Source: Escherichia phage HK6. From it: a DNA stretch of 64,000 nucleotides. The position numbers and the translations under genes are program-made. The first letter of the stretch is position 1. Each line of letters opens with the position of its first letter. The stretch lies in sequence record PP724615.1; one strand, written 5' to 3'. The notes below the pieces were generated by a model, which saw only the letters and a list, made by a program, of their open reading frames with translations, was not told the DNA's origin and searched no databases. Of this stretch, positions 2,915 through 56,564 are shown one piece after another.

Positions 2915-3099
2915 TATTTATTCTCCAGTTTGTCTAACAGTTTATGGGCTGCTAGATTATATTGTTTAAGTTCACGATTAAGGATTTGGTTCTCACACTT
3001 TAGCTCTAGATTCTTATTATTAAGAATATTGCAGATTAGTAGAAGTGCTAGTATTAGTAACAGAGAACCTACGAGCATTAAAAGAAAAAGAGTTTCCAT
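2914..3099 (-). CDS. Small membrane protein (61 aa)
   Basis: Hydrophobic N-terminal segment; start/stop overlaps with neighbours. Confidence 0.45.
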   Translation of the reverse strand: METLFLLMLVGSLLLILALLLICNILNNKNLELKCENQILNRELKQYNLAAHKLLDKLENK

Positions 3100-3539
3100 T
3101 ATTTTATCTCCATTCTTAACTTTGAAAACTTATTATACCAAACTATATGATTATCGTCAATTACAAATTTATGATAACATGCCGGTACGGTATAAGTTCC
3201 ATAATCCGTGACACGCTGCACAACCTTGTGTGCACACAGTCGACAACCATGCCCTTCTAAATGAGATCTAGCAGTTTGCCAGTAATAACCATCATGGTCT
3301 GGACAGTAGATCTCTACTTGCTGTTGCATTGTTTTATAATTTACACGCTCATACCCAAAGAAAACTCCATGAACTGCAACAGCTTTCTTGATAAATATAA
3401 GGTTTAGTGCTTCTTGTTGAAAGTCGGGATGTAGCTGCTTAATCTTAGTTCTATTAATAGATCCATCCGATTTGATAAACCTATTTATTGGGAAGTTGTT
3501 AGCTTCCTCGATCAGTAATTCATTTACTTTTTCTCTCAT
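3099..3539 (-). CDS. Hypothetical Cys/His-containing protein
   Basis: ORF extends to 3641 in the track; start placed at the internal Met just after the upstream stop (uncertain). Confidence 0.5.
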   Translation of the reverse strand: MREKVNELLIEEANNFPINRFIKSDGSINRTKIKQLHPDFQQEALNLIFIKKAVAVHGVFFGYERVNYKTMQQQVEIYCPDHDGYYWQTARSHLEGHGCRLCAHKVVQRVTDYGTYTVPACYHKFVIDDNHIVWYNKFSKLRMEIK

Positions 3540-6804: not shown

Positions 6805-7326
6805 TTAGACATCTAACATCCAACTAGTTTTATCATGAGATGTGTACTTACCACTCATGATGTCTTCCAGGCGTACTGGTGATTTTGCGTACTCAACACA
6901 AACGTTAATATAACGAGGATCTCCCATTAGCTCAAAGTGAGTATGCCCATGTAAGTTCTTTTTACCCCTCAGCTCCCCGGGGTGTATTGGGGCATGAGAA
7001 AGCCAGAAGTTTTTATACTTAACTAGTGACTGTATGTTATCTACAACTCCTATTAAGTCTTTGAAAGATAATCCTCCTCGTTCTAAGTCGTGGTTTCCCA
7101 AAACTAACGTAGTTCTAATATTGCTAAAGAGTTTTTCGAACTTCTCCAAACCATTTCTAGATACAAATGCATCTCCTAAAATATAGAATACTGTACGTTT
7201 ATCTTTCATGGATATAATAGTATCCATAATAAATTCGTCATGCTCTTCCATATTAGAGAAGATTGGTCTGAATTTAGTAATATTTGCATGTCCTAAGTGG
7301 AGATCACTCCAAAAACAAACTTTCAT
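6805..7326 (-). CDS. Calcineurin-like metallophosphoesterase (173 aa)
   Basis: Motifs SDLHLGH, GDAF, GNHD, GHTH. Confidence 0.8.
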   Translation of the reverse strand: MKVCFWSDLHLGHANITKFRPIFSNMEEHDEFIMDTIISMKDKRTVFYILGDAFVSRNGLEKFEKLFSNIRTTLVLGNHDLERGGLSFKDLIGVVDNIQSLVKYKNFWLSHAPIHPGELRGKKNLHGHTHFELMGDPRYINVCVEYAKSPVRLEDIMSGKYTSHDKTSWMLDV

Positions 7327-31043: not shown

Positions 31044-31511
31044 TTAAGTTTTAGTGACAACAGGTTTATAGAATGTATGTCCCTTAATCTTAGTTGTTTT
31101 CTTAAATTTCTTTGTCCAGTAAGGTTTATCTTTACCACTATGGAAGTATAGTGCTCCATGTGTAGGATCTTGTGGTAAATCAACGTAGTATATCACTCTA
31201 GCTAAATTCTTAGCGGTTTGCCAAGCCTCATCAGTTTTATCAACTTTTGGTCTCTTAGATACCCAAGAGAACTGGTTAGACTGATATACTACTTTACAGT
31301 AGGAATCTGGGAATTTACCGGAGTTTACACGGTTTTTAGTAACATGTGCAATCGCCGTCATTCCCTTTATGCCCTCACCACGACTTTCGAAATAGATATT
31401 TTTAGCAATGCAATCTATTTCTTTTGCATCGTGCGATGCCTGACTACTAAAGCTGAAGGTAAGGGCAGCTACTAAAAGCAAAGCTGCCTTCATTCTTCTT
31501 ACTCCTGCCAA
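31044..31511 (-). CDS. Secreted SleB-like cell wall hydrolase (155 aa)
   Basis: Signal peptide; IAKNIYFESRGEG...TAIAHVTKNRV resembles the SleB/hydrolase_2 family. Confidence 0.7.
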   Translation of the reverse strand: MAGVRRMKAALLLVAALTFSFSSQASHDAKEIDCIAKNIYFESRGEGIKGMTAIAHVTKNRVNSGKFPDSYCKVVYQSNQFSWVSKRPKVDKTDEAWQTAKNLARVIYYVDLPQDPTHGALYFHSGKDKPYWTKKFKKTTKIKGHTFYKPVVTKT

Positions 31512-31816
31512 TCATATTCAACACGATTGGGATTTTCTTTATACCCTAAGTCAAGCAAATCATTACGCATATTTTGCTTAGCTACTGGGTTCGAGGTTAC
31601 TAGTACCACTTTCTTTGGTCTCTGCCCAAATTCTAAGAGTAAACGAAGAATTTGATAACCTTCCATACCATCTACAGCCAAGTCATTATCCATATAAACG
31701 AAATGGCCTGTGGTATCAGTTTTATTCAGAAACTCTACAGCGGCTTCTGGGGTTCGAATGATAATGTCCATTCCGTGAAGATTACGCACATCATCAATCA
31801 AAATATGAAAAGTCAT
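31499..31816 (-). CDS. CheY-like receiver-domain candidate (105 aa)
   Basis: ILIDDV, VYMDNDL and LVTSNP spaced like receiver-domain acidic pocket, phospho-Asp and conserved Thr/Ser; weak. Confidence 0.4.
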   Translation of the reverse strand: MTFHILIDDVRNLHGMDIIIRTPEAAVEFLNKTDTTGHFVYMDNDLAVDGMEGYQILRLLLEFGQRPKKVVLVTSNPVAKQNMRNDLLDLGYKENPNRVEYDWQE

Positions 31817-34491: not shown

Positions 34492-35007
34492 TTACTTCGC
34501 TTTACGCTTGCGAGCTGGTTTAGCAGATTTACGGGCAGAATCACCCGTGAACTTAATGCCTACACCGTAACACAGAGCGCGAACGTTATCTTTACTATAC
34601 TCTACGCCAAAGATATTTGGCTTAACAGAACCAAACTGTCCACGAGCATCACGTAGTACGTCTGCCGTTGGTTTACGCTTCTGGTTAACTGCTTTCTCAT
34701 AGTCTTTCATAGCCATGCCATTACGAGAGAACAATTCAGCCCCAGCGTTGAAGCTCAGGGAAACTGGGACAGATTTGTGGCCGTAATTTTCTACATACAT
34801 AACCATTTTGTAGGATTTACGGGTGGCATTTTTAGCTTTAGGCTTCTGACGAATCGGAGCCGGATTATTCAGTGCTTGTGCAGCCTGAGCATCGGTAGGA
34901 TGCTTACGCAGGTGGCGTTCCAGACGAGCTTTGCGATTAGCCTCGGTCTGCGGGAAAGTTTTAACTGCCGGAGCTGCTTGAGTTTTTGCGTTTTTCTGCT
35001 TAGCCAT
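34492..35007 (-). CDS. Basic protein with Lys/Arg-rich termini (171 aa)
   Basis: Basic N- and C-termini, optimal-looking codons. Confidence 0.55.
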   Translation of the reverse strand: MAKQKNAKTQAAPAVKTFPQTEANRKARLERHLRKHPTDAQAAQALNNPAPIRQKPKAKNATRKSYKMVMYVENYGHKSVPVSLSFNAGAELFSRNGMAMKDYEKAVNQKRKPTADVLRDARGQFGSVKPNIFGVEYSKDNVRALCYGVGIKFTGDSARKSAKPARKRKAK

Positions 35008-35082: not shown

Positions 35083-35532
35083 TTAATTTATTAACTGTAA
35101 GCTTCTTTTAATTTCAGACCTTACCTGCATCAAAAGAACTCCTAAAGTATTATCCCCGATGCCTCGGCAAACACCCCAATATGTATCTCCCCAGGTATTT
35201 CCTTCGATCAAAGTTGCATTTTTTGTTGCTAACAGTTTGTCCCTCAAATCAGGGATTGCAAACTTTAACCGTAAAAGCTCTAGCATTACATCATCTTTTA
35301 CCTTATCCCAGTCAGAGCGCAGAGTTAATTTACGTCCTCTACGTTTGGCAACACCTGCATTTAGGGAGCGCAGTACATGAGCTACATCATCTTTTTGGTC
35401 GGATTTCATAGCCTGAAAAGCATGTTCTACAGTATCAGCATGCCATATTTCATTCAGATATTCAAAAGTAATTGGTGATAAATAAAAGTTTGATAAGAAA
35501 CTATAAGCACCTTTAAATTCAGTAATCTTCAT
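35083..35532 (-). CDS. NADAR / YbiA-like (DUF1768) protein (149 aa)
   Basis: Motifs FLSNFY, HAFQAMK, GNTWGDTYWGV typical of the YbiA/NADAR family. Confidence 0.7.
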   Translation of the reverse strand: MKITEFKGAYSFLSNFYLSPITFEYLNEIWHADTVEHAFQAMKSDQKDDVAHVLRSLNAGVAKRRGRKLTLRSDWDKVKDDVMLELLRLKFAIPDLRDKLLATKNATLIEGNTWGDTYWGVCRGIGDNTLGVLLMQVRSEIKRSLQLIN

Positions 35533-35813
35533 TTTTTACGCCCCGCATCTTTAGCCTCTTCGGCTGTATAGATATACTGATAAGCCCCTTTGGAGTATGC
35601 TGGAGCAGTACACATTTTCTTACGCTCAATCTCTTCTTGAGCTTTTCTTTCGCGTTCAGCTAATTCTTCGTCCAGATAAACTAAACGTTGTTCTGGAGGG
35701 GGTGGAAGACGTGTTTCTGGCTCACCAATATTAGCCTTTCTTATTTGACGAGGTGATTGTGCGCGTTTTCTCAATGGTTTAAATCCTAATGAATTTGAGT
35801 TATAAATCCGCAT
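35529..35813 (-). CDS. Hypothetical basic protein (94 aa)
   Basis: ORF track. Confidence 0.45.
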   Translation of the reverse strand: MRIYNSNSLGFKPLRKRAQSPRQIRKANIGEPETRLPPPPEQRLVYLDEELAERERKAQEEIERKKMCTAPAYSKGAYQYIYTAEEAKDAGRKK

Positions 35814-41693: not shown

Positions 41694-42058
41694 TTGGCTT
41701 TCCTTTTTATAGTTATCAGGATTTAAGGAATATTCTACTTTATTATCGGTCATTAGGCAAATAAAATTTTCTGATAGAAAAGGCCCGAGTATTTTCATAC
41801 CCAGGCCCTGTATATTACCAGTCTAGCTTTTTAGCTTATTCAATTACTTTAGCTCTAGCTACTTCTTTTAATAGAATATCTATGGAGGTGCTCAGCTCGT
41901 TATAATTGAATGGTTTATTTGGATTTGAGGTTACAATTTTCCACGCTAGGGTTGTCTTAGGACTTTCTTCCCCTTCCTTACGTGTAATCATATTAGCAGC
42001 ACTCAGTGAAGTACGATGTATTTTAGTTTTACGGCTCAGATGAACGACGTTTCCCATA

Positions 42059-42820
42059 TTACACCTTCCCCATGTCTTTAAAAATATCATAGAATGCTTT
42101 AGACTCAACAGAACGAACGTTATCAATCAATTCGATCATTGAGAATGGGGCATTTTCGTATTTCTCATAGACTTCCATAAGGAGTGCTAGACCTGAGTCA
42201 CCTTTAATGTCTTTCTGAGCTATATCTCCGCAGATAATTAAACGGCAGTCTTGTCCTACACGAGTTAGGAGACAAATCATTGCCTCAACGGAAATATTCT
42301 GAGCTTCATCGACAATTACATAGGAGTTGTTGAAAGTTCTGCCACGAGCATGTTCGATAGCCAAAAATTTAATTTTCTGACGTTCGACATATCCTTTATA
42401 TGCATGATCGCCGATGGCCCATTTCATACCATCAGCTATTGGCTCCAACCAAGGTTCTAGCTTTTCCGCTAGATCACCAGGAAGCATACCAAGAGACTTG
42501 CCTAGAGGTTCATTAGGACGTACGAGAATCACTTGCTCAATATCTGAGTGAATGTCTACGAGTTCCTGAGCTGCAAGAACGGACGGAATAAAGGTTTTAC
42601 CAGTACCCGGCTCACCGATACCCACAGTCACTGTGTTGTTCTTGATCATATTGATATATGATTTTTGCTCGCGGTTTTTACCTACTAGGGATTTAGCAAC
42701 TGGATTAGCGTAATCATTAGAAAAATCAGCCTGAATTACGTTGTTCTCATATTTGTTGCCACGCTTTCTTGAACCATTGCGGTTCTCTCTTTTTTGACGT
42801 GCTTTTCCCATAAATAACAC
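42059..42820 (-). CDS. phoH: PhoH-like ATPase (253 aa)
   Basis: Walker A GEPGTGKT and VIVDEAQN Walker B; RBS AGGAG. Confidence 0.85.
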   Translation of the reverse strand: MLFMGKARQKRENRNGSRKRGNKYENNVIQADFSNDYANPVAKSLVGKNREQKSYINMIKNNTVTVGIGEPGTGKTFIPSVLAAQELVDIHSDIEQVILVRPNEPLGKSLGMLPGDLAEKLEPWLEPIADGMKWAIGDHAYKGYVERQKIKFLAIEHARGRTFNNSYVIVDEAQNISVEAMICLLTRVGQDCRLIICGDIAQKDIKGDSGLALLMEVYEKYENAPFSMIELIDNVRSVESKAFYDIFKDMGKV

Positions 42821-43105
42821 TCCTATAGTGTACTTCGCTAACAGAGGATCAACAAAAAGATCTTGTTTATCAACTTACAAATATATTATACCAATATATA
42901 CAGTAAAAAGCAACTACAATTTTAAATAAGCCTATGATATTGCATTTAAATAAAAAATTTGCTTGCTTTTAACGTGAGATGTGTGATACTAGATAATCAT
43001 TTTATATCGCGTGCACGAGTGCGTGATTATACAATTTTTAATAGAGATTGGCAAATAAAATTTTTTGACTCAGATCATGTTACAGAACTTTATAGTAAAA
43101 TATTG

Positions 43106-43134
43106 TTGACATCCGCCCTCGAATGAGTTATAAT
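43106..43134 (+). promoter_or_regulatory. Consensus sigma70 promoter (TTGACA, 17 bp, TATAAT) upstream of nrdD
   Basis: Perfect -35 and -10 hexamers with 17-bp spacer; about 30 bp before the nrdD RBS. Confidence 0.75.
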
Positions 43135-43163
43135 AGTAGTCTTAGTTAGAGAAGGAGAGTATA

Positions 43164-45038
43164 ATGAATCGCAATGAAGAACTAAAGTATAAAGAAATGC
43201 AGGCGTTAATTAGAAACTGCAAAGAGATTATCGAAGGGTCAGCAGATGAAGAGCTGCTGTTTAATAATGCTAATAAACCCTCAGAACGTTTCCCTACACA
43301 AAGGGATATGCTTGCAGGTGAGTTGAGTAAGTATCTGATTCTAGAAGAAATGCCAATTCAGATTCGAAATGCTCATATGATTGGGGATATTCATTTCCAT
43401 GATGCTGATTATGCTGCATTAGGCATGACTAATTGTTGTCTGGTAGCTCTGGAAGATATGTTAAAGAATGGTATGAAGGTTGGTAATGCTGAAATTAGCA
43501 CTCCAAACTCTATTACCACTGCGGCGGCTATTACTGCTCAAATTATCACTCAGGTTAGCTCCCATCAGTATGGTGGTACTTCTGTAGATCGCCTTGATGA
43601 AGTATTAGCCCCTTATGTTCGTAAATCCTATGACAAAAATCATGCGTTTGCAAAACGTTGGACTAAGGATGAAGCCAAAGCATCCGTAATGGCTACGGAG
43701 ATGACTGAAAAAGAAGTCTATGACGCTTGTCAGGGTTTAGAATATGAAATCAATACCATGTTCAACTCTAATGGTCAGAGTCCATTTATTACCTTTGGTT
43801 TTGGTCTAGGAACTTCTTGGGAAGCACGTCTAGTACAGAAAGCAATACTGAAAGTACGCATGGATGGTTTAGGTATCAATAAACGTACAGCTATCTTCCC
43901 AAAACTGGTATTTGTACTTCGTGATGGTGTTAACATGAAACCAGGAGATGTTAATTATGACATCAAGAAGTTAGCTATGAAATGTACTGCTGAACGTATG
44001 TATCCAGATTATATCAGCTATGACAAGGTTGTAGAAGTTACTGGAGACTACAAAGTTTCTATGGGCTGCCGTTCATTCCTAGCTGCTACAGAAGATGGTG
44101 AAACTGCCGGTCGTAATAACTTAGGTGTTGTTTCTGTAAACTTGCCTAGAATTGCTATCGAAGCTGAAGGAAATATTGACCTATTCTTTGATTTGCTTGA
44201 GCTACGTGTGGATACAGCGTTAAAAGCATTGGAGTGGAGAGTTGATCGCTTAAAATACATTCAAGCTAAAGCTGCACCTATCCTCTATATGTCCGGAGCC
44301 TTTGGGTTACGCTTGGGGCCTGATGAGTATGTGTTCGATCATTTCTATAACCGTGCTTCTGTATCTCTAGGGTATATTGGTTGCCATGAAATGCTACAGT
44401 TCATGTTTGGCAAAGATGTAGACACAATGTCCGAGACCTGCATCAAGTTTGTTCAGCGTGTATTGCAGTACATGCGGGATAGAGTCGATCAGAAGAAGGA
44501 AGAGACTAAGTTAGGTTATAGCTTGTATGCTACACCGTCAGAGTCCCTATGCGATAGGTTTTGCCGTTTAGATCGTGAATATTTCCCAGAGCATGAAGAT
44601 ATTCTGTCTAAAGGATACTACACTAACTCGCACCACCTTGATGTAGAACGTAAAGTTGCTCCCAATGTGAAATTTGATTATGAATCTAACTTTACTCCTA
44701 TTGCTTCTGGTGGGTGCATTTCCTATGTAGAACTACCAGATATGAAACGATTCCCAGATGCACTGGAATGGGTTATTAATTATGCTGCTAGTAAAGTTCA
44801 TTACTTCGGTATTAATACTCCAGTGGATTCTTGTGGTAAATGTGGATTCTTAGGTGAAACAGTAGCATCCGAAGATGGGTTTAAGTGCCCTATCTGTGGT
44901 AATCATGACCCCGAAACTCTTGAAGTAACTCGTCGAGTTTGTGGGTATCTTGGAAATCCAGGTGCTCGTCCATTTAACCCCGGCAAACAGCACGAGGTAA
45001 TGGGCAGAGTGAAGCATCAAGATATTCGAGCTAAGTAA
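43164..45038 (+). CDS. nrdD: Anaerobic ribonucleoside-triphosphate reductase (624 aa)
   Basis: C-terminal zinc ribbon CGKCGF...CPICG and glycyl-radical motif RVCGYLG. Confidence 0.9.
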   Translation: MNRNEELKYKEMQALIRNCKEIIEGSADEELLFNNANKPSERFPTQRDMLAGELSKYLILEEMPIQIRNAHMIGDIHFHDADYAALGMTNCCLVALEDMLKNGMKVGNAEISTPNSITTAAAITAQIITQVSSHQYGGTSVDRLDEVLAPYVRKSYDKNHAFAKRWTKDEAKASVMATEMTEKEVYDACQGLEYEINTMFNSNGQSPFITFGFGLGTSWEARLVQKAILKVRMDGLGINKRTAIFPKLVFVLRDGVNMKPGDVNYDIKKLAMKCTAERMYPDYISYDKVVEVTGDYKVSMGCRSFLAATEDGETAGRNNLGVVSVNLPRIAIEAEGNIDLFFDLLELRVDTALKALEWRVDRLKYIQAKAAPILYMSGAFGLRLGPDEYVFDHFYNRASVSLGYIGCHEMLQFMFGKDVDTMSETCIKFVQRVLQYMRDRVDQKKEETKLGYSLYATPSESLCDRFCRLDREYFPEHEDILSKGYYTNSHHLDVERKVAPNVKFDYESNFTPIASGGCISYVELPDMKRFPDALEWVINYAASKVHYFGINTPVDSCGKCGFLGETVASEDGFKCPICGNHDPETLEVTRRVCGYLGNPGARPFNPGKQHEVMGRVKHQDIRAK

Positions 45039-45045
45039 GCTAATC

Positions 45046-45080
45046 AGCCGGGTTGCTAGTCGACCTGGCTTTTATTTTAT
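45046..45080 (+). terminator. Rho-independent terminator after nrdD
   Basis: GC-rich imperfect hairpin followed by TTTATTTTATTT. Confidence 0.55.
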
Positions 45081-45109
45081 TTGCTTTCATCCAAAAATTT
45101 ATATATAAT
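45081..45109 (+). promoter_or_regulatory. Conserved early promoter (TTGCTT, 17 bp, TATAAT)
   Basis: Same module as the other early promoters, followed by AGAGGAG RBS. Confidence 0.65.
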
Positions 45110-45137: not shown

Positions 45138-45518
45138 ATGGAATTAAAGCCCTATATAGTTGAATCTACATGTGGTAGTTTCCATCTGGGTGTGGATGAT
45201 ATTGCTGAGGCTGTCTTTGCTGCTACAGGTGATTACTCGCATATAGAGGGTGTTGCATACCCTACCATTATTGGCGATTGGGTGGAAACAAATCTAGATG
45301 TATCGCCTTATAACCCATATTGCTTGTTTGATGAAGACAGAGATGAAGTAAAATGTAATCTTGAATTTGTGTATAATAGAGTGTTAAAAGTATACCAACG
45401 TAGCCCCAATGGGTACGAAGATATTACTTGGAGTATTAAACAGTATCTTAAAGATATATACTCTAGTTTTTCTGACGAAGACCTAGAAATAGTTGCAGTG
45501 GAGTTTAATAATGACTAA
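45138..45518 (+). CDS. Hypothetical acidic protein (126 aa)
   Basis: ORF with strong RBS behind promoter. Confidence 0.6.
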   Translation: MELKPYIVESTCGSFHLGVDDIAEAVFAATGDYSHIEGVAYPTIIGDWVETNLDVSPYNPYCLFDEDRDEVKCNLEFVYNRVLKVYQRSPNGYEDITWSIKQYLKDIYSSFSDEDLEIVAVEFNND

Positions 45519-45717
45519 GAATGTGAAACACCTTAAATATCGCTTAATTTACAACGGACGTATGGAAACAGAAGATCTGGCCCAGTTAGCTATTAATTCT
45601 AAGGAGGTTACAGTGCGTGCGCTGGCAATTGAAAAGTTGCGTGCCTCTTATGAAAATCGTGTTATGGAATTAGAGGAGAAACTTTATGGCATTCTCGAAG
45701 CCGATGCTACCAGATAA
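45493..45717 (+). CDS. Hypothetical protein (74 aa)
   Basis: ORF track. Confidence 0.4.
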   Translation: MQWSLIMTKNVKHLKYRLIYNGRMETEDLAQLAINSKEVTVRALAIEKLRASYENRVMELEEKLYGILEADATR

Positions 45718-45907
45718 GGGTTTAAACGCCGCTTTGGAAAACGCATTAATGCAGCACTGGGAAACTGGCTATAAGGATGGTGTTGAATCCTGCGCTACTA
45801 TGCTAGAAGTTATTGCTAATACCTTAATGGAGAAAGGCAATAAAGAATTAGCTGAGCTATTAGATAGTATTGGGCAAAACTTCAGAGAACAGGTGAAAAA
45901 TGCGTAG
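45686..45907 (+). CDS. Hypothetical protein (73 aa)
   Basis: ORF track. Confidence 0.4.
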   Translation: MAFSKPMLPDKGLNAALENALMQHWETGYKDGVESCATMLEVIANTLMEKGNKELAELLDSIGQNFREQVKNA

Positions 45908-46736
45908 ATTAATTATTATTAGTGGTGCAGGTTTGAGTGTTGAAAGTGGTGTACGAGCTTTTCGTACTAATACTGCTAGCGGTAAAGCATTGTGGGATGA
46001 TTATGATCTAGAAGAAGTATGTAATATTCATGCCTTTCGTGGTAATTTTTATCATAAAACCCATATGTTTTACAACAAGCGTCGTGAAGAGCTAAAAACT
46101 GTTGAACCCAATCTTGCGCATTTGCGTATTGGTGAATGGTATAAACAATATCCAGGTCAAGTAGTAAACTTGACTACCAACGTTGATGACCTTATTGAGC
46201 GTGCTGGCGTTTCACATAGTGACATTCTGCACATTCACGGATATTTAAAAGAGGTTGTTGTAGCTGATAGCTACAATAGTAGCAATAAACGGATTATTGA
46301 TGTAGGATACAGTTCTATCGATCCGGATGATTATAAATGGGTTAAACCTAATGTAATCTTCTTTGGAGAGCATGCTCCAGCATATGCAGAAATGTACAAT
46401 GTTTTTGATGGTATTACCAGTCAAGATATGATTGTTGTGGTTGGTTGTTCTAACCAAGTAATTAACTTCTACTGGGAATTATTTCCTGTTCTTAATTTGA
46501 CTGCTGCGAAACTTATGGTTGTTAACTACCATGATAGTGCCCTCGCAGCGGAACCGGGCTATCAAGGTATGACTCGTAGTGAGATGTACCAGCTGGAGGA
46601 ACGCGGTATCCCTTACTGGAGTAAAGGTGCGGTAGATGCTTTCAGTGACCCTGATTTTATTGCTCGTGTAGAAGCTCATTTAGAGGGTAGACCTTATGTG
46701 TTGAGAAGCAAGGGAAACAGATATGTCCATAGTTAA
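45900..46736 (+). CDS. Sir2-like (sirtuin family) protein (278 aa)
   Basis: N-terminal Rossmann motif IIISGAGLSVESGVRAFR resembles the sirtuin GAGxS...FR signature. Confidence 0.6.
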   Translation: MRRLIIISGAGLSVESGVRAFRTNTASGKALWDDYDLEEVCNIHAFRGNFYHKTHMFYNKRREELKTVEPNLAHLRIGEWYKQYPGQVVNLTTNVDDLIERAGVSHSDILHIHGYLKEVVVADSYNSSNKRIIDVGYSSIDPDDYKWVKPNVIFFGEHAPAYAEMYNVFDGITSQDMIVVVGCSNQVINFYWELFPVLNLTAAKLMVVNYHDSALAAEPGYQGMTRSEMYQLEERGIPYWSKGAVDAFSDPDFIARVEAHLEGRPYVLRSKGNRYVHS

Positions 46737-46905
46737 ATCTGTATATACACATCCCGATGACATATTTGTATGGGCAGATGGTAGTTGGTGCTATCGATGT
46801 GAGTTATGGGAAATGGACTATAAATCCGATGACTATGGCGTCATATATGTTGATACGGTTGAGTATGATACGTTCTTAGAAAGGAACAAAAATGGAAATA
46901 AGTAA
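46723..46905 (+). CDS. Hypothetical protein (60 aa)
   Basis: ORF track. Confidence 0.35.
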   Translation: MSIVKSVYTHPDDIFVWADGSWCYRCELWEMDYKSDDYGVIYVDTVEYDTFLERNKNGNK

Positions 46906-47398
46906 TACTCCAATTATTTTTCTAGATATTGATGGGGTGCTCAATTCGAGCATCTCCCACCATCATGCACCTGATAATGAAAAGATTTTCTTTGGAAGTG
47001 ACTGGGTTTTCAAACCGCTTCTCAAGGCTTTTCAGGATTTTATTCGTCCTTCTCCGATAATGATTGTTGGAGTATCCTCATGGTTCTCTGTCAGGAATGA
47101 GATGGAAAACGTTCAGATTATGACCGGATTAGGTCTTATCGATCGTTTTCTTGGTACAACGGATTTTACTGGGGGTGGATTATCTAGGGGTAATTCTGTT
47201 CTTCGCTTCGTTGAAAAGCATAAGCTCAAACATTGGTGTGTGCTTGATGATGCTGGTGCTATGATGTATCAGTATCCAACGGTTATAGTCAACGGTAGGA
47301 CTGGGATAAATCTTCAAGATTTAAAAGCTGTTAGCTATATGCTAGAATTTAGCCCAGATCTTGAAATGTGTAAATCCTTACAACAATTTAAGGTGTAA
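46892..47398 (+). CDS. HAD-superfamily phosphatase (168 aa)
   Basis: Motif I FLDIDGVLN near the N-terminus; later acidic VLDDAG. Confidence 0.6.
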   Translation: MEISNTPIIFLDIDGVLNSSISHHHAPDNEKIFFGSDWVFKPLLKAFQDFIRPSPIMIVGVSSWFSVRNEMENVQIMTGLGLIDRFLGTTDFTGGGLSRGNSVLRFVEKHKLKHWCVLDDAGAMMYQYPTVIVNGRTGINLQDLKAVSYMLEFSPDLEMCKSLQQFKV

Positions 47399-47400
47399 AT

Positions 47401-47829
47401 ATGTTCAATAATGTATTCTCTAAAGAAGCTAACCCAATTTTGGTTAACTTTTGGCGTACTCTCCCAGCTAGCCTGTATAATGAGGCTATTAACTCCTTGA
47501 AAATATGGTGTGAGAATAATGAAATCTCCTTTGCTTTTAAAGATGATATTGATGAGGCCCCCTGTATTGGTTTAATTGTTCAGGTAGAGGAGGGTCTTGA
47601 GGAGATTGTCGGCTGGAAAGAGTTAGATGAAATAGGCTTAGTTTTTGCGTTAAACTATAAGCTGTTTATGCCTGCTAAGCATCGCCTCGTTGTTAACTAT
47701 AAAACTAGTGAATCTCCTGGTTTTCAAGTTAATGAACGTTACGGTTGGTCTTACTTACCGGAAGAAGTAAATGATGGTATCCAAAAACTTCGCCGTTTTG
47801 GTTATCAAATTCCGGGTTTAACTGCTTAA
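47401..47829 (+). CDS. Hypothetical protein, paralog A (142 aa)
   Basis: Shares blocks with the next ORF (PCIG, LNY/LNF, shared C-terminal PGL). Confidence 0.55.
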   Translation: MFNNVFSKEANPILVNFWRTLPASLYNEAINSLKIWCENNEISFAFKDDIDEAPCIGLIVQVEEGLEEIVGWKELDEIGLVFALNYKLFMPAKHRLVVNYKTSESPGFQVNERYGWSYLPEEVNDGIQKLRRFGYQIPGLTA

Positions 47830-47838
47830 GGAGGAAGA

Positions 47839-48231
47839 ATGGAACAAGTATATTGGCGTCAGATTGACCCTAGTTTGGTGAAGCGTGCGGAAAAGCTGCT
47901 ACAACGTTGGTTAGGGGTAAGGCAAGCCTCCTTCACTTTTCCGGAGCAGCAAACGGATGATCCCTGCATTGGCGTTTTCCTGTCTGGATATGCCGGGGAA
48001 TGGGAGATGGACTGGAATGAATTGTCAGCTATGGGTTTAATTGTTGCCCTAAACTTCTCTATATTCCATCCACGTGGTTTGGCCATATGTCGCGTGCCTG
48101 ATGACGGTTGTTCGCCCCATCTTTTACAGGTGGAAAATGATATTTGGGAGTACACTCCAGATATTCTCGCAGAAGCTAAAGAACAATTAAATCGTGTTGG
48201 GATTTATGTTCCGGGATTAAATGATGAATAA
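47839..48231 (+). CDS. Hypothetical protein, paralog B (130 aa)
   Basis: Tandem paralog of 47401-47829. Confidence 0.55.
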   Translation: MEQVYWRQIDPSLVKRAEKLLQRWLGVRQASFTFPEQQTDDPCIGVFLSGYAGEWEMDWNELSAMGLIVALNFSIFHPRGLAICRVPDDGCSPHLLQVENDIWEYTPDILAEAKEQLNRVGIYVPGLNDE

Positions 48232-54610: not shown

Positions 54611-55582
54611 ATGACTAATGTAAAAGACTTTATTAAACGTTGCCAAGAAGCGTATTACCAGGGAATGTCTTTAATCTCTGACGAAGAATATGATCGTCTG
54701 ATTAAAAGATTTCCGTTAGAAGAAGAGATCGGGCCTAAGGGCGATATTCCACATCTGTATCGTATGTATTCTTTACAGAAAGTTTATTATAATCGTGGAG
54801 ATAAACCTCCATTTAACCCATTAGGTCAGGTAGAAACTGATAAGTTAGATGGTTGTGCGATTTCTCTGTTATATATTAATGGAGAATTTGTTCAAGCACT
54901 AACTCGTGGTAATGGTATTCTAGGGAATGATGTCACAAGCAACGTAAGATTGCTGAACATCCCTAAAAAGATTTCCCAAAAAGTACCTACTCAAATCACT
55001 GGTGAAGTTCTAATTACAAAAGAAGTAGAAAATAAACGTAACTTTGCCTCTGGTGCTATTAACCTCAAAGATAGTGATGATTTCGTACAACGTATCGGAG
55101 AAGGTGGTTTAATCTTCGTTGCATACGGTATCCAGTGTTCTGCTGAATCTGTAGGTATTACAGAAGCATATTTAAAAGATATGCTTTGGCTAGAGAATGA
55201 GGACTTCTTAACAGTTGTTAATGTGCGTTCCTTCTTTAAATGGATTCCGACGGACGGTAAAGTTGTTCGTATTAATGATAACAACAAATTCTTTCGTGAA
55301 GGCTGGACTAATAAATTTCCTCGTGGCGCATTCGCTATTAAAGAAGATGAAGAAGGCGAAATTACAACTCTTACTAAAGTTGAATGGCAGGTAGGGGCTT
55401 CTGGTAAAGTAACTCCAGTTGGTTATTTCGAACCGGTAATTATTGATGATGCTACAATTGTTAAGGCGACTCTTAATAACGTTGATTATATTAACTCTCT
55501 TGATCTAGAGATCGGTTGCCAGATTCGAGTAATTCGTGCTGGTGGTGTGATCCCGTGCATAGTAGAGCGAGTATACGATTAA
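54611..55582 (+). CDS. NAD-type DNA ligase, N-terminal part (adenylation and OB, 323 aa)
   Basis: LigA-like N-terminus YYQGMSLISDEEYDRL; adenylation lysine motif KLDG. Confidence 0.75.
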   Translation: MTNVKDFIKRCQEAYYQGMSLISDEEYDRLIKRFPLEEEIGPKGDIPHLYRMYSLQKVYYNRGDKPPFNPLGQVETDKLDGCAISLLYINGEFVQALTRGNGILGNDVTSNVRLLNIPKKISQKVPTQITGEVLITKEVENKRNFASGAINLKDSDDFVQRIGEGGLIFVAYGIQCSAESVGITEAYLKDMLWLENEDFLTVVNVRSFFKWIPTDGKVVRINDNNKFFREGWTNKFPRGAFAIKEDEEGEITTLTKVEWQVGASGKVTPVGYFEPVIIDDATIVKATLNNVDYINSLDLEIGCQIRVIRAGGVIPCIVERVYD

Positions 55583-55632
55583 TACATAACCCTTTGCTAC
55601 CCATCTACCATATCGGAATTATAAAGTGGTTA

Positions 55633-55661
55633 TTGACATTTTCGCCGCTTAGGTATATACT
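55633..55661 (+). promoter_or_regulatory. sigma70-like promoter (TTGACA, 17 bp, TATACT) inside the ligase split
   Basis: Perfect -35; shares TTGACATTTTCGC with the promoter at 26635. Confidence 0.55.
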
Positions 55662-55725
55662 ATTATCATTCAGTTGAGGGATAGAAAGTTATGGCGAGGG
55701 TAAGCAAAGTTAGTTAAAATTGTAG

Positions 55726-55754
55726 TTGCTAAATGCTTAAATACTTGCTATAAT
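55726..55754 (+). promoter_or_regulatory. Conserved early promoter (TTGCTA, 17 bp, TATAAT)
   Basis: Directly upstream of the second ligase ORF. Confidence 0.6.
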
Positions 55755-55784
55755 ATTTATATAAATTGATAAGGAAGAAATTTG

Positions 55785-56564
55785 ATGAAAATCGAAATTC
55801 CAACACAATGTCCCTCTTGTGGTTCTAAGCTAGATCTTGTCAACGGACAATTATTCTGTAGGAATAAGTCCAACTGTCCAGCGCAATCAAGTAAGTTAAT
55901 TGAGAACTTCTGTTCAAAAATGAAGTTAAAGGGCTTTGGCCCAAAAACTATTGAGAAGCTGGAGCTGACGAAGATTTCAGAACTATTTTACCTAACCGAA
56001 GAAGATTTGGTTAGAGCCGTGGGTAGCAAGGTTGCCGCTAAGTTAATTAGCGAATTAAATACTAAAGTTCGCGGAGGCATTGACTTTGGTTCAGTTCTCG
56101 GTTCTTTAGGAATCCCTCTAATTGGAGAGGTTGCAGCAAAGAAATTATCCCAAAATTGCACTAGCTTCCACGATGTGAAGGCTGACGGCAAGGCTGGAGA
56201 AAACTATAAAGCCTGGCTAAATTCCCCACAAGGCAAGGATGTTATCGAACTACCGTGGAAATTCTCAACTGGTATTAAGGGCACTAAAGCCGACATCATC
56301 ATTACAGATGAGTTAGTTGCCCAGCCAAATGGAATCGCGGTATGTATTACCGGATCTTTGCAAGATTTTGCAAATCGAACGGATGCAACAAACTATTTAG
56401 AGAGTCTAGGATATACGGTTAAGAAATCCGTTACCAAAGACGTCAAATACCTAATCTGTGAGGATGAATCAAAACGTTCTTCCTCATCTTATAAGAAAGC
56501 CGAAACGAATGGGATAGAAATCCTGTCGATTAAAGAACTATTGGAGAAAAATAATAATGTCTAA
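55785..56564 (+). CDS. NAD-type DNA ligase, C-terminal part (Zn finger, HhH, BRCT, 260 aa)
   Basis: Four-Cys zinc finger CPSCGSKL...CRNKSNCPAQ, HhH-like segments, BRCT-like C-terminus; ATG 8 nt after AAGGAAG. Confidence 0.75.
   Translation: MKIEIPTQCPSCGSKLDLVNGQLFCRNKSNCPAQSSKLIENFCSKMKLKGFGPKTIEKLELTKISELFYLTEEDLVRAVGSKVAAKLISELNTKVRGGIDFGSVLGSLGIPLIGEVAAKKLSQNCTSFHDVKADGKAGENYKAWLNSPQGKDVIELPWKFSTGIKGTKADIIITDELVAQPNGIAVCITGSLQDFANRTDATNYLESLGYTVKKSVTKDVKYLICEDESKRSSSSYKKAETNGIEILSIKELLEKNNNV

What the first reader, a model, noticed from the sequence alone, without database searches (positions are those of the whole stretch)
45900..46736. Sir2-like protein encoded beside NAD-using enzymes
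The N-terminus has a sirtuin-like GAGLSVESGVRAFR Rossmann signature. Together with the NAD-type ligase (54611-56564) and the NADAR protein this makes three NAD-linked functions in the window. Sir2 domains in phage-host conflict often act as NADases or ADP-ribosyltransferases.
Basis: partly seen in the sequence, partly recalled or inferred. Interest (0 to 1): 0.55.

Follow-up and report, generated by a model that had tools for sequence, protein, structure and literature searches.

The report
Zinc-less sirtuin gene of T5-like phage
This is the well-known Sir2-like (sirtuin) early gene of T5-like phages. It looks catalytically intact but has lost its zinc ribbon, and it sits next to an RNA-repair-type phosphatase, so the gene is ordinary and already annotated although its real substrate (protein lysines or damaged RNA) has never been tested.

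Summary
ORF 45900..46736 (+, 278 aa) is a Sir2-family protein (Pfam PF02146, E=9e-25). It has the GAGLSVESGVRAFR NAD loop, a T-T-N-V-D motif, the catalytic His113-Gly114, FGE, GxS and Asn209. An AlphaFold model (pLDDT 90) superposes best on E. coli CobB.

The zinc-ribbon cysteines are absent and the TQNID Gln is replaced by Thr. All NCBIfam CobB models score below their cut-offs, and no PADLOC defence model matches.

The window is a Tequintavirus, 97% identical to phage fp01. The gene is T5.102, annotated Sir2 since 2005, and relatives occur in 997 of 50,697 phage records.

The "three NAD functions" are not clustered. The split NAD ligase lies 8 kb downstream. The NADAR gene lies 10 kb upstream on the other strand and is an accessory insertion.

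The real partner is the HAD_SAK_2 phosphatase two genes downstream. Orthologues in rV5-like phages follow Rnl1–cREC–kinase, and those in jumbo phages sit between 2H and Nudix/cREC genes. This reproduces the in-silico prediction of Iyer et al. 2022 of a KptA-like role in RNA repair.

A CobB-like protein deacylase role remains about equally likely. A defence-type NADase is not supported. The finding is already known and of low interest.

The parts
45900..46736 (+). Sir2-family sirtuin, 278 aa, orthologue of T5.102. It is a zinc-less, phage-specific clade derived from class III (CobB/SIRT5-like) sirtuins.
   Evidence: ORF. Pfam SIR2 E=9e-25. PHROG 2162 E=1e-119. CobB is the best PDB sequence match and best fold match, TM 0.84 normalised to CobB. 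AF2 model pLDDT 90.4. Invariant catalytic residues.
46892..47398 (+). HAD-superfamily phosphatase of the 'Swiss-army-knife RNA repair' type (T5.105 orthologue). It is the conserved partner of the sirtuin in T5-like phages.
   Evidence: Pfam HAD_SAK_2 PF18143 E=7e-20. The catalytic DxD (D12, D14), S62-S63, R99 and D119-D120 are invariant in 15 homologues. Linked to Sir2 in fp01, T5, gmork and, in inverted order, Erwinia phage KEY, and in 4 of 5 T5-like Sir2 clusters from IMG/VR. The capless HAD fold has only weak PDB matches, including MDP-1 and T4/mammalian PNKP.
45081..45109 (+). Promoter-like site TTGCTT-17 nt-TATAAT heading the operon that contains the sirtuin.
   Evidence: Read directly from the sequence. 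It lies at the position of the promoter annotated upstream of T5.100 in phage T5. It falls below the threshold of the consensus scan.
45046..45070 (+). Terminator-like hairpin plus T-run that ends the nrdD transcript and marks the 5' boundary of the sirtuin operon.
   Evidence: It corresponds to the terminator annotated after nrdD in T5.
45138..45907 (+). Three small upstream ORFs of unknown function in the same operon (45138..45518, 45493..45717, 45686..45907). The last one overlaps the sirtuin start by 8 nt.
   Evidence: They match only PHROGs of unknown function and have no Pfam match.
46723..46905 (+). Small ORF (T5.104 orthologue, 60 aa) bridging the sirtuin and HAD genes. It overlaps each by 14 nt.
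47401..48231 (+). Two tandem paralogous DUF7415 genes (47401..47829 and 47839..48231) that close the operon. Their function is unknown.
   Evidence: Pfam DUF7415 E=2e-34 and 7e-32. They follow the Sir2/HAD genes in all T5-like loci examined.
31499..31816 (-). cREC ('cyclic-phosphate processing receiver') gene. It is a possible dispersed partner; in rV5-like and jumbo phages the homologue lies next to the sirtuin.
   Evidence: Pfam cREC_REC PF20274 E=4e-15, above cut-off. Also found with a profile built from sirtuin-adjacent cREC genes, E=3e-10. Its link to the sirtuin in this phage is an inference only.
6805..7326 (-). Calcineurin-like phosphoesterase (T5.034 orthologue) related to the one in rV5-type sirtuin/RNA-ligase clusters. 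It is a possible dispersed partner.
   Evidence: A profile built from the cluster Metallophos genes scores E=2e-23. Pfam Metallophos E=3e-6. The link is an inference only.

Best explanation
The gene encodes a catalytically competent, NAD+-consuming sirtuin of the phage-specific, zinc-less clade. It is made early in infection from one operon together with a capless HAD phosphatase.

The most likely job is a step in healing broken RNA, probably tRNA cut by host anticodon nucleases. The enzyme would bind NAD+ in the canonical sirtuin pocket and expel nicotinamide. It would then let a substrate oxygen attack C1'' of the ribose. Here that oxygen is proposed to be an RNA 2'-phosphate instead of an acyl-lysine carbonyl. 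His113 would then activate the ribose 2''-OH to resolve the adduct. The phosphate would leave as ADP-ribose 1'',2''-cyclic phosphate, as in KptA/Tpt1. The HAD phosphatase, and perhaps the dispersed cREC and calcineurin-like esterases, would clear the remaining RNA-end or ADP-ribose phosphates.

Shown here: family membership, an intact catalytic core, loss of the zinc site, operon structure, and conserved linkage to RNA-end-processing genes in three unrelated phage backbones.

Inferred only: the substrate (RNA 2'-phosphate) and every chemical step.
For: 1. Active enzyme.
- All NAD-binding and catalytic residues are invariant across phage homologues down to 36% identity: G9 A10 G11, S16 G17, F21 R22, T92, N94, H113 G114, E157, G182, N209.
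- They are near-universal in 150 family representatives.
- The AF2 model is confident, and CobB is the top fold match.

2. Conserved gene context, independently reproduced here.
- Raoultella phage Ro1 (60% identical protein) and a 133-kb Logan contig: the gene directly follows T4-type RNA ligase Rnl1, cREC and, in Ro1, a P-loop AAA_33 kinase (encoded just upstream on the other strand in the Logan contig), with a Metallophos gene nearby.
- Erwinia phage KEY and Salmonella phage gmork: it is linked to HAD_SAK_2 in both gene orders.
- Jumbo phage GAP32: it sits between a 2H-like 'RNA ligase' and a Nudix gene.
- Across 80 IMG/VR loci grouped into 38 clusters at 80% identity: 4 clusters have HAD_SAK2, 6 (+2 partial) have Rnl1/cREC/kinase/Metallophos, and 9 have 2H + Nudix/cREC. 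Most of these genes are co-directional and within 0-2.5 kb.
- Rnl1 + kinase + cyclic-phosphate esterase + an NAD-using enzyme is the enzyme set of the fungal/plant Trl1 + Tpt1 pathway (established knowledge).

3. Clade-specific changes in the active-site pocket fit an altered substrate.
- The TQNID Gln becomes Thr/Ala/Ser.
- Loss of the zinc cysteines goes together with this change: 42 of 54 zinc-less representatives are non-Gln against 14 of 95 zinc-containing ones. These counts are not corrected for phylogeny.
- A Cys is invariant at the CobB A76 pocket position.

4. All NCBIfam CobB equivalog models score far below cut-off, for example 91 bits against 320.

5. The Sir2 catalytic half and most of the HAD gene were lost in a single deletion in the viable phage DT57C.

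6. The same prediction was made in silico for this clade. It names the Tequintavirus SP15 Sir2 + SAK-HAD pair (PMC9503650; taxonomy).
Against: - No sirtuin has ever been shown to act on RNA, and no experiment on any phage sirtuin was found.
- The protein keeps the features of a protein deacylase: closest sequence and fold are CobB/SIRT5, the FGE loop is kept, and the Tyr58/Arg61 pair equals CobB Y92/R95.
- This window contains no RNA ligase, polynucleotide kinase, 2H or Nudix gene, so in T5-like phages the pathway would be incomplete without host enzymes.
- About 11 of the 38 Sir2 clusters have no recognisable RNA-repair neighbour (ECO340P2).
- Linkage could simply reflect a shared 'early auxiliary nucleotide/NAD metabolism' module. 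NrdD, NAMPT and ligases are also neighbours.
- The HAD model does not specifically resemble PNKP phosphatases.
Confidence: 0.38

Rival explanations
1. It is a CobB-like NAD+-dependent protein lysine deacylase (deacetylase/desuccinylase). It would strip acyl groups from host or phage proteins early in infection, for example to reactivate acetylation-silenced enzymes of nucleotide, RNA or DNA metabolism. The products would be nicotinamide and O-acyl-ADP-ribose.
For: - The best sequence matches are CobB and other deacylases, and all 50 top fold matches are deacylase sirtuins.
- The acyl-lysine tunnel motifs are kept: F21, V95 (= CobB I131), H113, FFGE, and VNP in most clade members.
- Tyr58/Arg61 align with CobB Y92/R95. 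That pair recognises succinyl/malonyl groups in class III sirtuins (alignment; the role of the residues is established knowledge).
- Every biochemically characterised PF02146 member with this motif set is a deacylase or protein ADP-ribosyltransferase.
- This is the standing annotation and the view of PMC5107563.
Against: - It fails every curated CobB equivalog cut-off.
- The zinc module that shapes the peptide cleft has lost its ligands, and the conserved Gln is replaced.
- Arg61 is not kept in the jumbo-phage members.
- A deacylase role does not explain the tight, recurrent linkage to three different sets of RNA-end-processing genes.
Confidence: 0.35
2. It works on small ADP-ribose/NAD-derived molecules rather than macromolecules. 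For example, it could make or destroy an ADP-ribose derivative together with the HAD, cREC, 2H and Nudix esterases. This might counter NAD-based host immunity or form part of a phage NAD cycle.
For: - NAD-salvage genes (NAMPT/NAPRTase, NMNAT, PRPP synthetase) lie within a few kb of the sirtuin in Ro1, GAP32 and 14 or more IMG/VR clusters.
- An Acb2/Tad1-like sponge gene is nearby in ECO340P2.
- 2H, Nudix and HAD enzymes are all known to process ADP-ribose phosphates (established knowledge; discussed in PMC9503650).
Against: - T5-like phages, including this window, carry no NAD-salvage genes.
- No sirtuin is known to use a small-molecule acceptor physiologically.
- Rnl1 and polynucleotide-kinase neighbours point to RNA, not metabolites.
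Confidence: 0.1
3. It is a conflict-type Sir2 effector. It would act as an NADase or a protein/DNA ADP-ribosyltransferase used for host shut-off or to exclude competing phages.
For: - The sirtuin core can in principle hydrolyse NAD+ or transfer ADP-ribose.
- Some phage sirtuins (HerA-linked or Macro-linked) are predicted to act this way (PMC9503650).
Against: - No PADLOC defence model matches.
- No HerA, SLOG, TIR, pAgo or Macro partner is found in the operon.
- The fold is closest to deacylases, not to ThsA/DSR2-type structures.
- The phage depends on NAD+ for its own DNA ligase, which makes bulk NAD+ depletion self-harming.
Confidence: 0.07
4. It is a decaying or catalytically dead remnant with no enzymatic role.
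For: - The zinc site is lost.
- The gene is dispensable in at least one viable relative, DT57C.
Against: - The catalytic residues are strictly conserved across about 1000 phage records and down to 36% identity.
- The ORF is full length and the model is confident.
Confidence: 0.02

Closest known systems
T5.102 'Sir2-like protein' of phage T5 and its orthologues in Tequintavirus and other Demerecviridae
   Same: Same gene. It is 94% identical to T5.102 and 97% to fp01 gp056, with the same position between nrdD and the replication-origin-binding gene and the same operon.
   Different: Only strain-level differences: a 6-aa longer, disordered C-terminus, and T5 has one extra small ORF (T5.103).
Phage 'RNA-repair' sirtuin clade of Iyer, Burroughs, Anantharaman & Aravind 2022 (PMC9503650), neighbourhood type 3 (Escherichia phage SP15: sirtuin + SAK-HAD)
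   Same: Same genus and the same Sir2 + HAD_SAK_2 pairing. Orthologues 50-66% identical sit in their type 2 (Rnl1-cREC-kinase) contexts and 36-43% identical ones in their type 1 (2H-Nudix-cREC) contexts.
   Different: Nothing structural differs. What this analysis adds is the correlated loss of zinc ligands and the Gln-to-Thr change, the invariant pocket Cys, the dispersed cREC and Metallophos genes in T5-like genomes, and the co-deletion in DT57C.
E. coli CobB / human SIRT5 (class III sirtuin deacylases)
   Same: Same fold (TM 0.84 on CobB). The GAGxSxxSGxxxFR, NxD, HG, FGE and GxS motifs are shared, as are the Tyr/Arg pair (Y58/R61 = CobB Y92/R95) and the small pocket residue position (C41 = CobB A76).
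   Different: About 24% identity. No zinc-binding cysteines. Gln of TQNID is replaced by Thr. Scores are far below all NCBIfam CobB cut-offs. It has an extra C-terminal helix and a T5-clade insertion after Asn209. It is encoded by phages and linked to RNA-end-processing genes.
KptA/Tpt1 RNA 2'-phosphotransferase
   Same: This is a proposed functional analogy only. Both consume NAD+, release nicotinamide, form a C1'' adduct and resolve it through the ribose 2''-OH. Both associate with RNA ligase, kinase and cyclic-phosphodiesterase genes.
   Different: The fold is unrelated (ART superfamily versus a Rossmann sirtuin). The phage KptA loci examined gave no informative, shared neighbourhood. The activity is untested.
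Defence-associated SIR2 NADases (ThsA, DSR1/2, SIR2-HerA, SPARSA) and Macro-linked SirTM ADP-ribosyltransferases
   Same: Same superfamily and the same NAD-binding Rossmann core.
   Different: No profile match. No sensor or partner domains and no Macro gene. The fold is closer to deacylases. It is encoded by a lytic phage as an early gene.

Membership tests
Sir2 family (Pfam PF02146) | Profile score above the curated gathering threshold over the whole domain | tested here: met
   88.1 bits against a cut-off of 24, covering profile positions 1-178 of 180.
Sir2 family (Pfam PF02146) | NAD-binding loop GAGxSxxSGIxxFR, Asn/Asp of the TQNID motif, catalytic His in the HG motif | tested here: met
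   G9-R22, N94, D96 and H113-G114 are present. G9, A10, G11, S16, G17, F21, R22, N94, H113 and G114 are invariant; D96 is invariant but Ser in Vibrio phage nt-1. H113 aligns with CobB H147 by residue counting.
Sir2 family (Pfam PF02146) | Four-cysteine zinc ribbon in the small domain | tested here: not met
   There is no Cys between residues 113 and 149. The nearest zinc-containing relatives have CxxC...CxxC at the aligned positions. The model keeps a beta-hairpin there.
Sir2 family (Pfam PF02146) | Conserved Gln of the TQNID motif | tested here: not met
   The position is Thr93. It is Thr/Ala/Ser throughout the zinc-less clade and Gln in 93 of 150 representatives.
Class III sirtuin / CobB equivalog | Tyr-x-x-Arg pair that recognises acidic acyl groups (CobB Y92/R95, SIRT5 Y102/R105) | tested here: met
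   Y58 and R61 align with CobB Y92 and R95. The anchors are the A76G and I131C variant positions visible. Y58 is invariant, while R61 is lost in the jumbo-phage members.
Class III sirtuin / CobB equivalog | Score above the NCBIfam curated cut-off for the CobB/deacylase models | tested here: not met
   The best scores are 101 bits against a cut-off of 243 and 91 against 320. All seven models are below cut-off.
Class III sirtuin / CobB equivalog | NAD-dependent lysine deacylase activity | not testable with these tools
   This needs an enzyme assay. No published assay of a phage member was found.
Phage RNA-repair-associated sirtuin clade (Iyer et al. 2022) | Sirtuin gene in a conserved neighbourhood with SAK-type HAD, or with Rnl1/cREC/kinase, or with 2H/Nudix/cREC | tested here: met
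   HAD_SAK_2 lies two genes downstream. The other architectures were confirmed for orthologues.
Phage RNA-repair-associated sirtuin clade (Iyer et al. 2022) | Sequence clade distinct from cellular sirtuins and restricted to phages | tested here: met
   All named top hits are phage proteins, and those on long contigs lie on contigs of phage-genome size. 997 phage records carry a relative. The clade shares zinc loss and the Gln-to-Thr change. One cellular MAG-derived relative was seen.
Phage RNA-repair-associated sirtuin clade (Iyer et al. 2022) | KptA-like removal of RNA 2'-phosphate | not testable with these tools
   This exists as a prediction only.
Defence-associated SIR2 NADases | Match to a defence-system SIR2 profile, and a fused or adjacent sensor/partner (SLOG, HerA, TIR, pAgo, DSR extensions) | tested here: not met
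   No PADLOC hit at E<=0.01. The protein is single-domain and its neighbours have no such domains.
Macro-linked SirTM ADP-ribosyltransferases | Operonic Macro-domain partner | tested here: not met
   No Macro domain occurs in the operon or the flanking genes.

The most novel reading that the evidence does not exclude
The zinc-less phage sirtuins would be the first sirtuins that act on nucleic acid. They would be NAD+-dependent RNA 2'-phosphotransferases that independently re-invented the KptA/Tpt1 reaction on a Rossmann scaffold. With the HAD, cREC and 2H esterases, and Rnl1 where present, they would form a phage pathway that repairs tRNAs cut by host anticodon nucleases. The hypothesis is already in print (PMC9503650), so only its demonstration would be new.
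Probability: 0.3. Interest if true: 0.7.

Novelty: already known. Interest (0 to 1): 0.28.

Why it matters
For the scan it matters little, because this is a correctly recognisable and long-annotated gene of a textbook phage.

More broadly, about 2% of sequenced phage genomes carry this sirtuin, and nobody has measured what it does. If it is a deacylase, lytic phages rewrite host lysine acylation. If it removes RNA 2'-phosphates, the sirtuin superfamily gains a new class of substrate, and phage RNA repair gains a missing enzyme.

The analysis also exposes an annotation error that is spreading through databases: the neighbouring HAD phosphatase is being labelled 'Sir2'.

Tried and rejected
- Defence-type SIR2: the PADLOC scan gave no hit. 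Rejected.
- Literature on experiments: searches for T5/Sir2, Tequintavirus/sirtuin, phage-encoded CobB, 'T5.102', sirtuin/Tpt1/phage and phage T5/deacetylase found only annotations, one homology-modelling paper (PMC5107563) and the in-silico survey PMC9503650. No biochemistry or genetics was found. The Burroughs & Aravind 2016 RNA-repair paper is not held.
- Non-orthologous displacement test: I asked whether KptA occupies the sirtuin's place in phage RNA-repair clusters. KptA occurs in 98 phage records, but the three loci inspected are surrounded by unannotated genes with no Pfam matches except a radical SAM protein. Inconclusive.
- HAD partner against solved structures: there was no sequence hit. 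The fold search gave only weak capless-HAD matches (best E=0.008), with MDP-1, KdsC and T4/mammalian PNKP among them. This fits a macromolecule-directed HAD but is not specific.
- Naming the nearest zinc-containing relatives: the cluster look-up returned almost no names.
- Consensus promoter scan: the number of sites was no greater than in shuffled sequence, and the scan missed the real-looking TTGCTT/TATAAT site, which I then read by eye.
- Search of the window for Rnl1, polynucleotide kinase, 2H, Nudix, NAMPT and ATP ligase, using profiles built from sirtuin-adjacent genes: none found.
Full report
**What is there.**
It has an AGGTGA Shine-Dalgarno sequence just upstream and overlaps the preceding small ORF by 8 nt. 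The quoted motif GAGLSVESGVRAFR is residues 9-22.

The protein matches Pfam SIR2 (PF02146) over the whole domain, at E=9e-25 and 88 bits against a cut-off of 24. It matches PHROG 2162 'Sir2' at E=1e-119. This is not a chance resemblance.

**Where the window comes from.**
The 2.5 kb around the gene is 97% identical to Escherichia phage fp01. It matches 444 phage records, nearly all of them T5-like phages of Escherichia and Salmonella. In the reference T5 genome the gene is T5.102. It is annotated 'Sir2 (NAD-dependent deacetylase)' by InterPro match and lies between nrdD and the replication-origin-binding gene. The protein is 94% identical to T5.102.

By tblastn, 997 of 50,697 phage records carry a relative. 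These include T5-like phages, rV5-like and phi92-like phages, KVP40-like Vibrio phages, jumbo phages and others. Most are already labelled Sir2. The finding is therefore an already annotated gene of a classical phage.

The closest solved protein is E. coli CobB (1s5p, E=2e-17). PDB entry 6rxm carries the engineered substitutions A76G and I131C, which are visible in the printed alignments. Using them as anchors, the window protein aligns as follows:
- C41 = CobB A76
- Y58 = Y92
- R61 = R95
- V95 = I131
- H113 = H147

In an alignment of 40 homologues (50-86% identity), these residues are invariant: G9 A10 G11 S13 S16 G17 F21 R22, F57 Y58 R61 R62, T93 N94 V95 D96, H113 G114, F154 F155 E157, G182 S184 and N209. 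Most remain invariant when jumbo-phage and Vibrio-phage members at 36-38% identity are added.

An AlphaFold2 model is confident (mean pLDDT 90.4, pTM 0.88). Its 50 best Foldseek matches in the PDB are all bona fide deacylase sirtuins. CobB comes first (TM 0.84 on the CobB length), followed by Sir2Af, Sir2Tm, SIRT5 and SIRT2. So the sirtuin catalytic core is present.

The zinc ribbon is not present. The protein has two cysteines, and neither lies in the 113-149 segment. In that segment the nearest zinc-containing relatives have CxxC...CxxC aligned to V-A-D-S and P-D-D-Y here. The model keeps a beta-hairpin at this place.

**What distinguishes the clade.**
A profile search of 1.84 billion representatives found 157 proteins at E<=1e-30. 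Among the 149 of the best 150 that could be scored at both positions:
- Loss of the zinc cysteines goes together with replacement of the otherwise universal Gln of TQNID by Thr/Ala/Ser: 42 of 54 zinc-less against 14 of 95 zinc-containing. The Fisher p of 2e-14 is not corrected for shared ancestry.
- A Cys occupies the CobB A76 pocket position in 123 of the 150.

The protein scores far below the curated cut-offs of all seven NCBIfam CobB/deacylase models, for example 101 against 243 bits. It matches no PADLOC defence model. It is therefore a sirtuin derived from the class III type. It is not a CobB equivalog and not a defence-type SIR2.

**Surroundings.**
A terminator-like hairpin follows nrdD at 45046-45070. 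A TTGCTT-17-TATAAT promoter-like site follows at 45081-45109, at the place where T5 has an annotated promoter.

A tightly packed, co-directional gene set then follows, with overlaps of 8-14 nt:
- three small ORFs of unknown function
- the sirtuin
- a 60-aa ORF
- a 168-aa HAD phosphatase of Pfam family HAD_SAK_2, 'HAD domain in Swiss Army Knife RNA repair proteins' (E=7e-20)
- two paralogous DUF7415 genes

The HAD protein keeps the DxD nucleophile motif and the other HAD motifs in all 15 homologues aligned. It models confidently as a capless HAD (pLDDT 94). Its PDB matches are only weak, and they include MDP-1 and the T4 and mammalian PNKP phosphatase domains.

- The NAD-dependent DNA ligase is split into 54611..55582 and 55782..56564, within the replication module.
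- The NADAR gene is at 35083..35532 on the other strand. It is missing at that position in T5 and fp01 and present in only 95 phage records.

**Context in relatives.**
- Raoultella phage Ro1 (protein 60% identical): the gene order is Metallophos ... Rnl1 (T4-type RNA ligase) - cREC - AAA_33 kinase - SIR2 - ATP ligase, with NAD-salvage genes upstream and NADAR downstream.
- A 133-kb Logan contig: Rnl1 - cREC - SIR2, with kinase and Metallophos alongside.
- Erwinia phage KEY: HAD_SAK_2 - x - SIR2, so the pair is kept although the order is inverted.
- Salmonella phage gmork: the same order as this window.
- Phage ECO340P2: no recognisable partner.
- Jumbo phage GAP32: NMNAT, NAMPT, a small 2H-like 'RNA ligase', Sir2, Nudix, PhoH.

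I fetched 80 sirtuin loci from IMG/VR and scanned their flanks with profiles built from these neighbours. At 80% identity the sirtuins form 38 clusters:
- 4 have HAD_SAK2
- 6 (plus 2 partial) have Rnl1/cREC/kinase/Metallophos
- 9 have 2H + Nudix/cREC + PhoH + NAMPT
- 5 have only NAMPT nearby
- about 11 have none of these

The same profiles found a cREC gene in this window at 31499..31816 (minus strand), confirmed by Pfam at E=4e-15. They also found a related calcineurin-like esterase at 6805..7326. They found no Rnl1, polynucleotide kinase, 2H, Nudix or NAMPT.

In the viable T5-like phage DT57C, one deletion removed the N-terminal 168 residues of the sirtuin and most of the HAD gene. A 90-aa chimeric ORF was left behind.

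**What the literature says.**
Iyer, Burroughs, Anantharaman and Aravind (Viruses 2022, PMC9503650) state that most viral sirtuins form a distinct clade predicted to work in RNA repair 'in a manner analogous to KptA'. They describe exactly these three neighbourhoods. Their third type is exemplified by Escherichia phage SP15, a Tequintavirus.

Skliros et al. 2016 (PMC5107563) modelled the zinc-less Vibrio-phage homologue as a CobB-like deacetylase and listed T5 among the carriers. I found no experimental study of any member.

**How it most likely works.**
Shown here: an intact sirtuin active site under strong conservation, zinc-site loss, pocket changes, early-operon organisation, and recurrent linkage to RNA-end-processing enzymes on three unrelated phage backbones.

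Inferred: the substrate.

I rate two readings as nearly equal.

The reading I rank first (0.38) is the KptA-like one:
- NAD+ binds as in all sirtuins and nicotinamide leaves.
- An RNA 2'-phosphate oxygen, instead of an acyl-lysine carbonyl oxygen, attacks C1''.
- His113 activates the 2''-OH to release ADP-ribose 1'',2''-cyclic phosphate and 2'-OH RNA.
- The HAD, cREC and Metallophos esterases handle the other phosphates.

Its strength is that Rnl1 + kinase + cyclic-phosphate esterase + an NAD-using enzyme reproduces the fungal/plant Trl1 + Tpt1 enzyme set. Its weaknesses are that no sirtuin is known to act on RNA, that T5-like phages lack a ligase and kinase in this window, and that a third of the clusters show no such context.

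The rival (0.35) is a CobB-like protein deacylase. It is favoured by all sequence and fold similarity and by the retained Tyr58/Arg61 acidic-acyl pocket. It does not explain the gene linkage or the failure of the CobB equivalog thresholds.

A small-molecule ADP-ribose/NAD-cycle role (0.10), a conflict-type NADase or ADP-ribosyltransferase (0.07) and a dead remnant (0.02) are less likely, for the reasons given in the rival entries.

**Verdict.**
The gene, its family and its context-based functional hypothesis are all already in databases and in print, so novelty is 'already known' and interest is low (0.28). The open and testable question is biochemical: does this widespread phage sirtuin act on acyl-lysines or on RNA phosphates?

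Noticed in passing
window 46892..47398; L008 (DT57C) 2980..3252: The HAD_SAK_2 phosphatase gene is labelled 'Sir2 (NAD-dependent deacetylase)' in T5 (T5.105), fp01 and many pharokka-annotated genomes (the 'Sir2 x2' entries). The cause appears to be PHROG 18062, a 92-position family. The HAD C-terminus matches it at E=6e-58 and the sirtuin matches it weakly at E=2e-5. It seems to be seeded by the chimeric 90-aa 'defective Sir2' ORF of DT57C, which joins sirtuin residues ~169-233 to HAD residues 128-168 after a deletion.
   Followed up: yes
window 35083..35532 (-): The NADAR-domain gene (PF08719, E=7e-22; annotated YbiA or GTP cyclohydrolase II elsewhere) is an accessory insertion between the DUF7022 gene (34492..35007) and the T5.090 homologue (35529..35813). 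It is absent from T5 and fp01 and present, nearly identical, in 95 phage records. It weakly matches a NADAR 'anti-phage' NCBIfam model and PADLOC PDC-M42C. A NADAR gene also lies about 6 kb from the sirtuin in Raoultella phage Ro1.
   Followed up: partly
window 31499..31816 (-): This 105-aa gene (T5.084 orthologue, 'hypothetical' in T5) is a cREC 'cyclic-phosphate processing receiver' domain protein (PF20274, E=4e-15). It lies at the edge of the tRNA gene region. In rV5-like and jumbo phages its homologue is adjacent to the sirtuin.
   Followed up: partly
window 42059..42820 (-); L005, L007, L009, L011: A PhoH-like ATPase is a recurrent neighbour of the phage sirtuin. In every T5-like locus examined it is divergent, 2.3-2.9 kb upstream. 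In 9 jumbo-phage clusters, where it is a longer ~480-aa form, it is co-directional, 1.2-1.6 kb downstream. The meaning of this is unknown.
   Followed up: partly
window 54611..55582 and 55782..56564 (+): The NAD-dependent DNA ligase is split into two ORFs about 200 nt apart: adenylation + OB, and HhH + BRCT. The same split is annotated in fp01. I did not examine whether the gap hides an intron, a mobile element or a frameshift.
   Followed up: no
window 47401..47829 and 47839..48231 (+): Two tandem paralogues (about 30% identical) each carry two DUF7415 repeats. They always follow the Sir2/HAD genes in T5-like phages, and they survive in DT57C even though Sir2 and HAD are deleted there.
   Followed up: no
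Family-wide (P0121-P0270): Among the nearest 149 family representatives, loss of the four zinc cysteines is strongly associated with replacement of the TQNID Gln by Thr/Ala/Ser. The closest zinc-containing relatives already share the 'VCN' pocket Cys and the 'IGY' hairpin motif, which suggests stepwise degeneration of the zinc ribbon.
   Followed up: partly
L004 (Escherichia phage ECO340P2) 1940..2215: An Acb2/Tad1-hairpin family gene (an anti-CBASS/anti-Thoeris sponge fold) lies about 4 kb upstream of the sirtuin in this phi92-like phage. No RNA-repair neighbour is recognisable there.
   Followed up: no
window ~42000-44000: GC skew flips from negative to positive at about 42-44 kb. This coincides with the switch from minus-strand to plus-strand genes at the divergent phoH/nrdD promoter region.
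   Followed up: no
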